In this document: in pieces, positions 45,552-48,500 of the stretch
Layout: each line of letters begins with the position of its first letter
Numbering within the stretch: position 1 is the stretch's first letter
NCBI GenBank assembly: GCA_965153355.1
Contig: OZ231126.1
Location: forward strand, 45,198,001-45,262,000
Reading direction: 5' to 3'
Origin: Flaccisagitta enflata
Taxonomy: Eukaryota
Length of the DNA: 64,000 nt
Translations under genes and position numbers: made by a program
Notes under the pieces: generated by a model
What the model saw: only the letters and a program-made list of their open reading frames with translations
Database searches by the model: none
Told to the model about the DNA's origin: nothing

Positions 45552-48500
45552 ATGAATCACAAAATCGTGCTTGTGTTGATCATGATCGCGTTTGTGTCTT
45601 TCGCCCCTGGGACCTTCTCCCTCCCTATAAACTCGACCACCAACACGTCGGTCGCTGCAGCTGCAGTGGCAATACTCTCGCCCCCCTCTGAAGACTCAAA
45701 TGTCACCTCTACAACGGGTTGGACATCCTCAATGACTACCGTTGTCACCGCTACAACCGAGAACGCGAGAACAAAGACCTCAAACGAATCCACCATTTCT
45801 ACTGACAGTGACACGAATGCTTCCGCGACTACAACCGCGACCCCTACGATGACGACGTCGACTCCACCAGCTTTCGTATTAACCATCGATCCAAATCCCG
45901 TCCACGAACACGAGAAGGCGTTGATCCAATGCCGAGCTCCGGCCTCGACAAAGCACGTTCTATTCTTTCGGAATGGAGATTTATTCGACGGCGGAGGGAG
46001 GAGAAAAAGAAGTGATGCAGCTGATGGAAGGAGCAAAACCACAATCAACACCACTGCCACCAACAACCTCACCGCAACGATTAACAGCACCACCATTTCT
46101 TTCGACATGCCGACAACGACAACGACAACCGAGGATACGACACCAACAACGAGTACAACCAGTACAACCAGCACAACCAGTAAAAACGGAAGTTCCAACA
46201 GCAACACAACGACCGCGACCACAATTGCGCCTACGGACAACGAAACAATTTTATACATCGAAGTGTGGGTGACGAGACAAAATCATAGAGACCTTTGGTA
46301 TTGCTTGGGAAGTTTACCTGACGGAAATGGTTCGAGTTCGGGTCGGAGTGAAAGCGTCGAACTCGACGTAAAATGGCCCTTGATTGTGGAGAAGATATCC
46401 CACAAGGAGGAAGGAGAATGGATATACATTACATTCGTGACCAGCGCAAATCCGACCGAGCTTTTCAACCTCAGCTCATTCATTCGTATCCTTCAAAAAC
46501 ATTTAAAACCGGACATCTTTTTACGCGTGCAAAATACAGCTTCAAATGCAGGCACTAAACAGACGACGACATGGATGGTAGAGAAAAAGCATCTCCCTCT
46601 CAACTTCACTATCTTGCTGCCGGGGCGCAGCCCATATTCATACGGAATCGCTGGTCCAGAAAGAAGCTCCGCCGTAGCTGCTGTCGTGGTCATATTCTTC
46701 CTCATCCTCCTCATCGGTCTTGGTGTCGTCGCTTTCGTTATTTGGCGCAAACGACAACCGAAACCGCGAACGATTATTCCAAGAGTTTCAGTTCAGAAAA
46801 CCAACCAGCGGAGAGTATCGGAGCTTCTGCTCACTAGGTTGGCTCACAAACTGTCAGATGGAGTCCTTTTTTTGTTCTTCTTCTATCTCTTCTTTCATAG
46901 ATTTGAATCTATAATAACCACTAATGAACACAAATGAAATATGGCGGATAACCACTAATAACCACTAATAACGCGCTGGTAACCACTAATAACCACAAAT
47001 GAAATATGGCGGATCAATCACTTTGGAAAAAGTGTAGCTCTAAAAGGAATAAAGCTGCAAATACCAGATTTTTTTTTGTCCCAGTTAAAAGTGTTATTTA
47101 GCCATTTATAGTATCCTCGATAGGGTGGTCCCAAATTGGGCCAAATTTCATATTTTCATATACTTGAGCCCTTTGCTCAAATGCCCAATAAAAGAAGAAT
47201 TTCTCACAAGCTGGGGTGTAAAATCAAACCAGAGACCTTGTCGGCAAAGCCATAGGCTTGCTATGGGGATATTTTTATTGCCATAGGGAGCCTATAGTTT
47301 TGCCGCCATGGTCTTATCTTCAAATTCAGACCTCTACTTGTGGGAAAACCTTCTTATTTAATACATTTATGCAAAAAACTAGAGTATATCATTTTTTGAA
47401 ATTTGACCCTATTTCGTCACCACCCTAATCCTCAAGGTTACTGAACTAAGGATTTAACGGTTGTAGTAAAAGTAAAAGTATAGTTTATACTTTTTGACAG
47501 ATAAATAATTCCTTCCGCTTTCATTAGATTTTCCACGCAAGTCCGAGAGGCGATTCCAGTGGAGGCTTTCTTTGACGAATTCTGGGTCTCTCAAAACACT
47601 TTTAAATCGGAATTCACGAGTCTCGCTAAAAACAAACTCAACGAAACCACGGATGCTGGCAAAGATGAAGAAAACTTCGGTACGGTTGGCTGAAGTGGAC
47701 CTCTGTAAACCGAGGAAAACCTCTGTTAGTTAGACAAATCAAATTCTTGCACTTTTTGTCTTGTTAAAGGAAAAATGAAATTTCTTTTAGTTGCAAGCTA
47801 ACTTTTTTGAATTTCTTTTGACACAATTCAATTCAGACAAAAACCGCTACATCGATATTCTGCCATATGATTCGTCCCGCGTGGTTCTCAAAAGGGATGA
47901 AAGCGAGATGGTTGGTCAATCTGACTACATCAATGCAAACTTCGTCGATGGACATCAAAAAGACAACGCCTTCATTGCGTCTCAAGGTTTCTTTGTCCGT
48001 CATTCTTTCAATTCGCCTATCTGTCTATTTGTTTGTTTGTTTGTTTGTTTGTTTGTTTGTTTGTTTGTTTGTTTGTTTGTTTGTTTGTTTGTTTGTTTGT
48101 GTGTTTGTTTTTTTGTGTTTGTTTCTTTGTTTGTTGGTTTGTTTGTTTGGCTGTCTCTCTATCTATCAAGTTGACTGGCCGTTGACGAAATGATTGTTGG
48201 TTTTATCCATTTTGCCAGGACCACTGCTTAGGACGTTGGAGCATTTTTGGCAGATGGTCTGGCAAGAAAACGTCGGATGCATTATGATGCTGGCCAATCT
48301 CGTGGAAGAAAAGAAGAAAAAGGTCGAACTGTATTGGCCTGAGGAAATCAAAGCGAAAAAGACGTATGGTAAAATTAGTTACAACGGTTTTTTTTTCTCA
48401 GGCATGTATCATATCAAAGAAAAACATTTGTTTTCAAAATGTACCTTGAGGATATGGCTTTCCATATAACGCTATTATGTGAAAAAAATGACGTTTCAAA

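What the first reader, a model, noticed from the sequence alone, without database searches (positions are those of the whole stretch)
45860..46385. Receptor PTP ectodomain: Ig-like domain split by a furin site and a mucin-like insert
Seen: [19 protein letters not shown](127)RAP...VLFFRNG, then GGG-RRKR-S (45999-46010) and about 80 Thr/Ser/Asn-rich residues, then [19 protein letters not shown](251)...[11 protein letters not shown]. These are the only two ectodomain cysteines, 124 aa apart. Established: the flanks resemble Ig A-B-C strands (F for the usual W) and E-F-G strands; RxKR is a proprotein convertase site; LAR- and PTPmu-type RPTPs are furin-processed, but in FNIII or juxtamembrane regions. 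Inference: cleavage inside the Ig fold would give a two-chain receptor held by the Ig disulfide, with a glycosylated mucin arm projecting from the domain. I do not recognise this architecture from described RPTP subfamilies.
Basis: partly seen in the sequence, partly recalled or inferred. Interest (0 to 1): 0.72.

Follow-up and report, generated by a model that had tools for sequence, protein, structure and literature searches.

The report
Receptor phosphatase with split Ig domain
An animal receptor phosphatase gene appears to carry an immunoglobulin-type domain interrupted by a furin-type cutting site and a long sugar-bearing arm, which would probably yield a two-chain receptor built like the insulin receptor, though the cutting itself is not shown.

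Summary
Observation confirmed. Exon 1 of a single-copy, tandem-domain receptor PTP (15-exon model, 1,066 aa) encodes signal peptide, mucin 1, Ig strands [10 protein letters not shown], a 76-aa Thr-rich insert, Ig strands E-G, a second Cys-less domain and the TM helix. C127 and C251 are the only ectodomain cysteines.

The split Ig is likely, not proven. The halves co-fold in ESMFold2 (0.52 vs control 0.01, 'weak support'). The insert-deleted flanks score on an own-genome C2-set profile (1 of 500 shuffles reach it). An Ig-guided model is well formed, but that test is circular. Pfam finds no Ig, and an unguided model gave another fold.

No plausible splice removes the insert; no RNA spans it. RRKR conservation could not be tested. 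Two findings temper novelty: other Ig genes of this genome carry low-complexity inserts in the same loop (7 of 57 domains, enriched sample), and RRKR sits where Ig domains often have an Arg.

Best reading (0.55): a convertase cuts after R153, leaving two chains held by the Ig sheet and disulfide, with two glycosylated arms. It works like the insulin receptor insert domain or integrin calf-2. I found it in no RPTP paper searched.

The parts
45552..45620 (+). Start codon and likely signal peptide (residues 1-23)
   Evidence: Hydrophobic N-terminus read from the sequence; cleavage position is my estimate, no predictor was run
45621..45869 (+). Mucin-like segment 1 (residues 24-106; T 30%, S 17%; 5 N-sequons)
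45870..45989 (+). Ig N-half, strands A-A'-B-C(-C'); C127 at 45930; F138 in place of the C-strand Trp
   Evidence: Profile alignments, MAFFT register, model pLDDT 76-90 with Ig-guided alignment
45999..46010 (+). RRKR (150-153), furin-type R-X-[KR]-R site after GGG; predicted cut between R153 and S154
   Evidence: consensus as in PMC3083689; start of the low-confidence stretch of the model
46011..46241 (+). Thr-rich mucin-like insert (154-230) between strands C and E; 6 N-sequons
   Evidence: pLDDT <50 over residues 149-225; no clean splice pair
46242..46379 (+). Ig C-half, strands E-F-G; C251 at 46302
   Evidence: co-folds with the N-half, weak support
46380..46637 (+). Second extracellular domain without cysteines (about 277-362), probably a degenerate Ig
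   Evidence: 33% identical homologue P0003; Ig reading rests on recalled motifs, own-genome Ig profiles gave no signal
46680..46742 (+). Transmembrane helix (377-397); exon 1 ends at 46837
   Evidence: Hydropathy maximum; donor chosen by phase
47528..50786 (+). Exons 2-8: juxtamembrane part and PTP D1 with intact KNRY, WPD, HCSAGVGRTG and Q-loop
   Evidence: Pfam Y_phosphatase E 1e-13 and 7e-15 on two exons; open spliced frame
50892..53995 (+). Exons 9-15: PTP D2 ([10 protein letters not shown], lacks the P-loop Arg) and acidic tail
54463..58732 (+). Second copy of 50218-54455 (last nine exons); assembly artefact or very recent tandem duplication
   Evidence: 98.4% over 4,282 columns; 9 of 9 exons identical

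Best explanation
A single-copy receptor tyrosine phosphatase (active-type D1, degenerate D2) whose first Ig domain carries a convertase site and a 76-residue mucin-like insert in the region between strands C and E. SHOWN: sequence anatomy and spliced PTP frame. LIKELY (about 0.85): the flanks fold into one Ig sandwich with the B-F disulfide C127-C251, and the insert loops out disordered. INFERRED (about 0.7 given the fold): a furin-type convertase in the trans-Golgi cuts after R153. The N-terminal chain (24-153, 13.6 kDa before glycans; mucin 1 plus strands A-C) stays bound to the membrane chain (154-1066, 103 kDa) through the shared beta-sheets and the disulfide. The cut turns a closed loop into a free, O- and N-glycosylated arm, so the mature receptor shows two mucin arms from one Ig domain. 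INFERRED by analogy with CD45 and PTP-alpha (recalled): the arms act as glycan-bearing spacers or lectin-binding sites that control how closely the phosphatase approaches other receptors or itself.
For: Halves 104-150 and 218-280 folded together without alignments score 0.52, best of 3 controls 0.01; runs agree in at least 91% of contacts; partner pLDDT at least 74, against 36 beside an unrelated chain. The tool calls this weak: the mark was reached by 51 of 78 solved and 2 of 108 mismatched pairs, but at 0.60 or under by only 5 of 78 solved and by all 4 mismatches that passed; in eukaryotes 39 of 65 and 2 of 126. Halves of one domain can pass by likeness to solved Ig structures. Best of 70 insert-deleted variants scores 8.2 bits on an own-genome C2-set profile, reached by 1 of 500 flank shuffles, also with Cys fixed. 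MAFFT without manual help puts C127, F138 and C251 on the Ig Cys, Trp and Cys columns when long-loop Ig domains are in the set. AlphaFold2 on that alignment gives flank pLDDT 65-90 and a disordered 149-225; the model matches Ig domains at Z 10.8, rmsd 2.4-2.5, 88-90 aligned (circular). ESM Atlas top hits are Ig-clan, 0.83-0.85 (lead only). RRKR is rarer than chance and has Gly before and Ser after. The genome has 8 convertase P-domain matches. RPTPs are furin-processed (PMC12598525, PMC3656086).
Against: No Pfam Ig match for the whole region or either half and no Ig chain among PDB sequence hits for either half. The profile signal comes mostly from the N-half: with only the C-flank shuffled, 30 of 300 reach 8.2 bits. 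With ordinary Ig domains only, MAFFT did not align C251. Unguided AlphaFold2 (pLDDT 44) folded 230-332 as ferredoxin-like. RRKR coincides with the usual Ig Arg position, and an uninterrupted own-genome Ig has RERR at the same offset (L088). P2' is Asp, which I recall as uncommon in furin sites. No orthologue covers the site and no RNA spans the insert.
Confidence: 0.55

Rival explanations
1. Split Ig is real but stays single-chain. The insert is a tolerated low-complexity loop expansion, as in other Ig genes of this repeat-rich genome. RRKR is an elaborated D-strand Arg that is not cut, or whose cutting does not matter. The loop acts at most as a glycosylated bulge.
For: 7 of 57 own-genome Ig domains have Cys-Cys spacing of 65 or more (median 51), up to 114, with Ser, Thr or Asn runs in the same loop; 2 of 57 have R-x-[KR]-R there (sample enriched, five loci were picked for long span). 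Arg peaks at W+12 (13 of 57).
Against: This insert gives the longest spacing seen (124). It is mixed Thr-rich sequence with 6 sequons rather than a homopolymer. The full RRKR after GGG is an optimal site in a predicted disordered stretch; R-[KR]-[KR]-R appears in 0.27% of shuffles.
Confidence: 0.26
2. The flanks do not form one Ig. The N-terminal 153 residues are a pro-piece released by furin, and the region after the second mucin folds alone, for example as a SEA- or ferredoxin-like juxtamembrane domain; the cysteines serve dimers or are free.
For: Single-sequence AlphaFold2 built a beta-alpha-beta-beta-alpha-beta unit from residues 230-332, best Z 7.6, rmsd 2.4, 87 aligned. No library Ig hit. 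Mucin followed by SEA before a TM helix is a common layout (recalled).
Against: That model has mean pLDDT 44 and Z under 8 is common background. Homologue P0003 has a 10-residue deletion beside the second helix and no matching amphipathic stretch. The N-half is confidently folded only beside the C-half and matches Ig A-C.
Confidence: 0.13
3. The insert, or part of it, is not in the mature protein: it is an intron or an assembly error.
For: No RNA contig spans it; the one contig on exon 1 starts at 46235. Three phase-1 donors inside the insert score 3.8-4.6 and pair with an acceptor at 46263 (0.4), within the range of the gene's real sites. The locus has a suspicious identical duplication downstream.
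Against: Those pairs keep RRKR and delete the start of strand E. The two donors placed to remove all or most of the insert (45957, 46012) score -0.1 and -3.2, below all 14 real donors (1.7-8.6). The insert is 10% T against 33% in intron 1 and has no stop (matrix from only 14 introns).
Confidence: 0.06

Closest known systems
Insulin receptor insert domain (ID)
   Same: Disordered insert holding a tetrabasic furin site (RKRR, 720-723) that splits the receptor into two chains; the new N-terminus of the membrane chain (724-756) is disordered and highly glycosylated (PMC7039211, passages).
   Different: The host domain is FnIII-2 and the alpha-beta link is a separate disulfide (both recalled), not an Ig B-F bond. 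It is a kinase, and its insert carries the ligand-binding alpha-CT helix.
Integrin alpha subunit calf-2 domain
   Same: Beta-rich domain cleaved internally into heavy and light chains held by a disulfide (PMC12383024, passages; furin as the enzyme is recalled, the paper does not name it).
   Different: Not an IgSF domain with the canonical B-F bond; no long mucin insert described in the passages seen.
LAR-type (R2A) and PTP-mu/kappa-type (R2B) RPTPs
   Same: Tandem D1/D2; Ig in the ectodomain; furin processing into E and P subunits. D1 exons hit PTPRS, LAR, PTP-alpha and PTP-gamma best.
   Different: Their subunits are non-covalently joined and the ectodomain has FNIII repeats, plus MAM in R2B (recalled). 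Here there is no FNIII or MAM hit and the site is inside the Ig.
CD45 (R1/6) and PTP-alpha/epsilon (R4)
   Same: Tandem PTP domains with a heavily glycosylated Ser/Thr-rich N-terminal segment (recalled).
   Different: CD45 has a Cys-rich domain and three FNIII domains, R4 has no folded ectodomain (recalled); neither has a split Ig.
C2/intermediate Ig domains of CD22, CEACAM, RAGE, nectin-like proteins
   Same: Top structural matches of the guided model; the F-strand lead-in aligns with the own-genome C2-set_2 profile.
   Different: Phe for the C-strand Trp, Cys spacing 124 against a median of 51, and no confidently modelled D strand.

Membership tests
Classical receptor PTP with tandem D1/D2 | Signal peptide, single TM helix, cytoplasmic PTP domain | tested here: met
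Classical receptor PTP with tandem D1/D2 | D1 with KNRY, WPD, HCSAGVGR, Q-loop; second degenerate D2 | tested here: met
   Spliced model
Ig superfamily domain (C2/I-set) | B-strand and F-strand Cys in register | tested here: met
   not aligned without long-loop rows
Ig superfamily domain (C2/I-set) | C-strand Trp | tested here: not met
   F138 occupies the Trp column
Ig superfamily domain (C2/I-set) | Match to a curated Pfam Ig model | tested here: not met
   No Ig family up to E 10 for the whole region or the halves; the insert-deleted form could not be scanned against Pfam
Ig superfamily domain (C2/I-set) | Two-sheet beta-sandwich formed by both flanks | tested here: inconclusive
   Weak co-folding; guided model Ig-like; unguided model differs
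Ig superfamily domain (C2/I-set) | B-F disulfide actually formed | not testable with these tools
   No distances are returned; needs mass spectrometry
Furin/PC substrate | R-X-[KR]-R at P4-P1 | tested here: met
   RRKR 150-153; consensus in PMC3083689
Furin/PC substrate | Accessible polar flanks (P14-P7, P3'-P6') | tested here: inconclusive
   Flanks mostly polar or Gly, with Leu-Phe at P10-P9; model disordered from residue 149, but the site may begin a D strand
Furin/PC substrate | Site conserved in orthologues; cleavage observed | not testable with these tools
   Only homologue found, P0003, starts after the split domain
R2A (LAR) RPTP | Three Ig plus several FNIII repeats | tested here: not met
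   Ectodomain about 350 aa, about 160 of them mucin, no FNIII hit
R2B (PTP-mu/kappa) RPTP | MAM, one Ig, four FNIII | tested here: not met
   No MAM or FNIII hit and no room for them
R1/6 (CD45) or R4 (PTP-alpha) RPTP | Mucin plus Cys-rich and three FNIII domains (CD45), or short unfolded ectodomain (R4) | tested here: not met
   Only two Cys and two folded beta domains
Any vertebrate RPTP subfamily, by phosphatase phylogeny | D1 groups with that subfamily in a tree | not tested
   No reference sequences were obtained; single-exon PDB hits are split among R2A, R4 and R5

The most novel reading that the evidence does not exclude
The cut Ig domain is a regulated latch. After convertase cleavage, the canonical B-F disulfide and the shared sheet are the only links holding a distal mucin chain. 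Reduction or pulling force releases that chain, unfolds the half-domain and switches the phosphatase by shedding or dimerisation, much as cleaved Notch NRR or SEA domains do (recalled). This would be a two-chain canonical Ig domain used as a redox or force sensor in an RPTP.
Probability: 0.1. Interest if true: 0.78.

Novelty: new variant of a known kind. Interest (0 to 1): 0.45.

Why it matters
If cleavage is confirmed, this is an RPTP whose two chains are joined by the core disulfide of an Ig domain, whereas LAR- and PTP-kappa-type chains are joined non-covalently. It would repeat the insulin-receptor design (furin site plus glycosylated disordered arm inside a beta-sandwich) in an unrelated receptor and domain type, which points to convergence. 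It also shows that Ig domains with very long C-D inserts escape Pfam, so such ectodomains may be under-annotated in invertebrate genomes. It does not open a long-standing question, and the principle has precedent.

Tried and rejected
Orthologue search for the split domain failed. Three word-index protein searches gave no hit. The exhaustive phmmer search gave 2 hits: P0003, covering only domain 2, and P0002, a Thr-rich chance match. P0003 is a singleton on a 545-base contig whose DNA I could not fetch. Two metagenome scans found nothing.

Own-genome paralogues of the ectodomain: none. Protein hits were low-complexity, retrotransposon or LINE frames; DNA hits other than self (2 of 3) covered only the Thr-rich repeat. 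I fetched 20 of 38 PTP-exon matches; the long ectodomains among them are Cys-rich lectin/EGF/CCP-like by eye, or IA-2-like, and none resembles this one.

RNA: run X2 laid 1 read, under 90% alike (about 6% of the run read), so it is uninformative. X1 gave one 258-base contig at 46235-46491 and repeat contigs in intron 1.

A deletion-boundary grid could not tell whether a D strand lies at RRKR or at the end of the insert. Domain 2 gave no signal on three own-genome Ig profiles or in the Atlas. Foldseek gave no E <= 0.001 match for either model.

Literature searches for this architecture returned nothing relevant (0 papers; 4 listings each, not read); the library lacks most subscription journals. 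Four look-ups of earlier scan findings were empty.

Full report
OBSERVATION. The quoted residues lie in one frame from ATG 45552. C127 (45930) and C251 (46302) are the only cysteines in the first 420 residues. RRKR is residues 150-153 (45999-46010). Residues 155-230 are 41% Thr, 13% Ser and 11% Asn with six sequons. The window lies on contig C1 of an unnamed 794-Mb, 9-contig genome with spliced genes, G000.

THE GENE. Exon 1 (45552-46837) holds the whole ectodomain: signal peptide, mucin 1 (24-106), the candidate split domain (107-276), a second domain without Cys (about 277-362) and the TM helix (377-397). Fourteen further exons with GT-AG ends give an open 1,066-residue model. D1 has all catalytic motifs; D2 reads [10 protein letters not shown]. 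Two D1 exons hit Pfam Y_phosphatase. Their best PDB hits are spread over PTPRS/LAR, PTP-alpha and PTP-gamma/zeta, so no subfamily follows. The ectodomain is single-copy in G000. Other RPTP-like frames fetched (20 of 38 matches) have unrelated ectodomains and at most 43% D1 identity over the full domain.

IS IT AN IG? Library searches are blank: Pfam for the whole region and each half, and PDB sequences apart from three non-Ig hits at E 0.15-0.89. ESM Atlas top hits are mostly Ig-clan but score 0.83-0.85, a lead only. I built a profile from the 29 C2-set_2 matches in G000, exact duplicates dropped. The best of 70 insert-deleted variants scored 8.2 bits and the native sequence -4.9. One of 500 flank shuffles reached 8.2, and 1 of 500 with Cys fixed. 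With only the C-flank shuffled, 30 of 300 did, so the signal is mostly strands A-C.

ESMFold2 folded residues 104-150 with 218-280 as two chains, without alignments: 0.52 against a best control of 0.01, runs agreeing in at least 91% of contacts, partner pLDDT at least 74. The tool rates this weak: at 0.60 or under, 5 of 78 solved complexes and all 4 passing mismatches; in eukaryotes 39 of 65 solved and 2 of 126 unrelated pairs reached the mark. Halves of one domain may pass by likeness to known Ig structures, which here is the question asked.

MAFFT failed to align C251 with 26 ordinary Ig domains. It put C127, F138 and C251 on the Cys, Trp and Cys columns with 12 domains that included long-loop ones. 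AlphaFold2 on that alignment gave strands A, B, C, E, F, G at pLDDT 65-90 and disorder over 149-225. The model matched Ig domains over its whole span (best Z 10.8, rmsd 2.4-2.5, 88-90 aligned). This is circular, since the alignment was of Ig domains. Against it, single-sequence AlphaFold2 (pLDDT 44) folded 230-332 as ferredoxin-like, Z 7.6 at best. I put the split Ig at about 0.85.

IS THE INSERT TRANSLATED? With matrices from the gene's own 14 introns, the two donors placed to remove all or most of the insert score -0.1 and -3.2, against 1.7-8.6 for real donors. Three better donors inside the insert pair with an acceptor at 46263, but that would keep RRKR and cut into strand E. The insert is 10% T against 33% in intron 1. 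RNA did not settle it: the only contig on exon 1 (run X1, marine metatranscriptome, depth 2.1, 7 differences in 257 bases) begins at 46235.

IS RRKR A SELECTED FURIN SITE? It fits R-X-[KR]-R (PMC3083689, first of two parts read) and follows three Gly at the start of the disordered stretch. G000 has 8 convertase P-domain matches. Shuffles give the motif in 3.9%, and the doubly basic form in 0.27%. It occurs once in 9,996 residues of 11 other RPTP ectodomain frames. However, among 57 non-redundant Ig domains recovered by pattern from loci L050-L113, 27 have an Arg at W+10 to W+15, peaking at W+12, which is R150 here. One uninterrupted domain has RERR at the same offset and another has RRRR in an insert. 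Seven of the 57 have Cys spacing of 65 or more, up to 114, from Ser, Thr or Asn runs in the same loop; five loci were picked for long span, so the rate is inflated. Inserts in this loop are thus not unique in this genome, and the site may have grown from the usual Ig Arg. Conservation could not be tested: the only homologue, P0003 (33% identity, best own-genome match is this gene), covers domain 2 alone.

MECHANISM. Most likely (0.55) the protein folds in the ER with C127-C251 and the insert looped out, and a furin-type convertase cuts after R153. A 13.6-kDa chain then stays on the 103-kDa membrane chain (unglycosylated masses) through the sheets and the disulfide. The result is two glycosylated arms with free N-termini on one Ig domain, probably acting as spacer or lectin-binding surface that sets access of D1 to substrates; this last step is analogy with CD45 and PTP-alpha from recall. 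Rivals: uncut or irrelevantly cut loop expansion (0.26), no shared Ig fold with a released pro-piece (0.13), insert spliced out or mis-assembled (0.06).

COMPARISON. It works like the insulin receptor, whose disordered insert domain holds RKRR and leaves a glycosylated disordered N-terminus on the membrane chain (PMC7039211, passages). It also works like integrin alpha calf-2, cleaved into disulfide-linked chains (PMC12383024, passages). LAR-type and PTPRK receptors are furin-cut into non-covalent E and P subunits (PMC12598525 and PMC3656086, passages). It is a tandem-domain RPTP but fails the ectodomain tests for R1/6, R2A, R2B and R4. Searches for the architecture found no describing paper, in a library without most subscription journals. 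PMC2820236 (passages) gave no rule for P2'. No supplements were read.

VERDICT. Real feature; fold likely; cleavage plausible and untested; principle known from other receptors. New variant of a known kind, interest 0.45.

Noticed in passing
window 50218-54455 and 54463-58732: The last nine exons of the PTP gene, with introns, are repeated head to tail; all nine exons are identical and overall identity is 98.4%. Assembly artefact or very recent duplication.
   Followed up: partly
L110, L097/L113, L111, L062, L088 (G000 C5, C3, C6): Ig domains of several other genes carry Ser-, Thr- or Asn-run inserts between strands C and D, with Cys spacing up to 114; one has RRRR in the insert. Microsatellite-like expansion into Ig loops may be a genome-wide trait.
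   Followed up: partly
L029-L046 (G000 C1, C2, C5-C9): An expanded set of apparently intronless receptor PTP frames (open frames about 1,000-2,300 aa) with Cys-rich lectin/EGF/CCP-like ectodomains, named by eye; several seem to lack the catalytic HCSAG motif.
   Followed up: no
window 46235-46491: The X1 contig differs at 7 bases; 5 of the 6 listed change an amino acid (R246K, R265Q, E267K, E280D, K281E). This could mean a fast-evolving ectodomain, but depth is 2.1 and errors are possible.
   Followed up: partly
window 19113-20789 (+): Intronless phospholipase B-like gene, 558 aa, Pfam PF04916 E 9.6e-170.
   Followed up: partly
window 46380-46637: Second ectodomain domain has no cysteines in this gene or in homologue P0003, yet keeps SANP and KHLP-x-N motifs; probably a disulfide-free Ig, unproven.
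   Followed up: partly
L017, L022-L025 (G000 C3, C4, C6, C8): An LTR-retrotransposon-like family with one stop between a gag-like and a protease-containing frame in all four copies, and a long in-frame AAC microsatellite in the second frame.
   Followed up: no
window 48221-48367: D1 reads KVELYWP where classical PTPs have a KCxxYWP motif (recalled); the Cys is missing while the catalytic motifs are intact.
   Followed up: no
window about 47120-47430: Intron 1 holds a repeat element covered by many metatranscriptome contigs; this probably supplies most of the small word share that brought in run X1.
   Followed up: no
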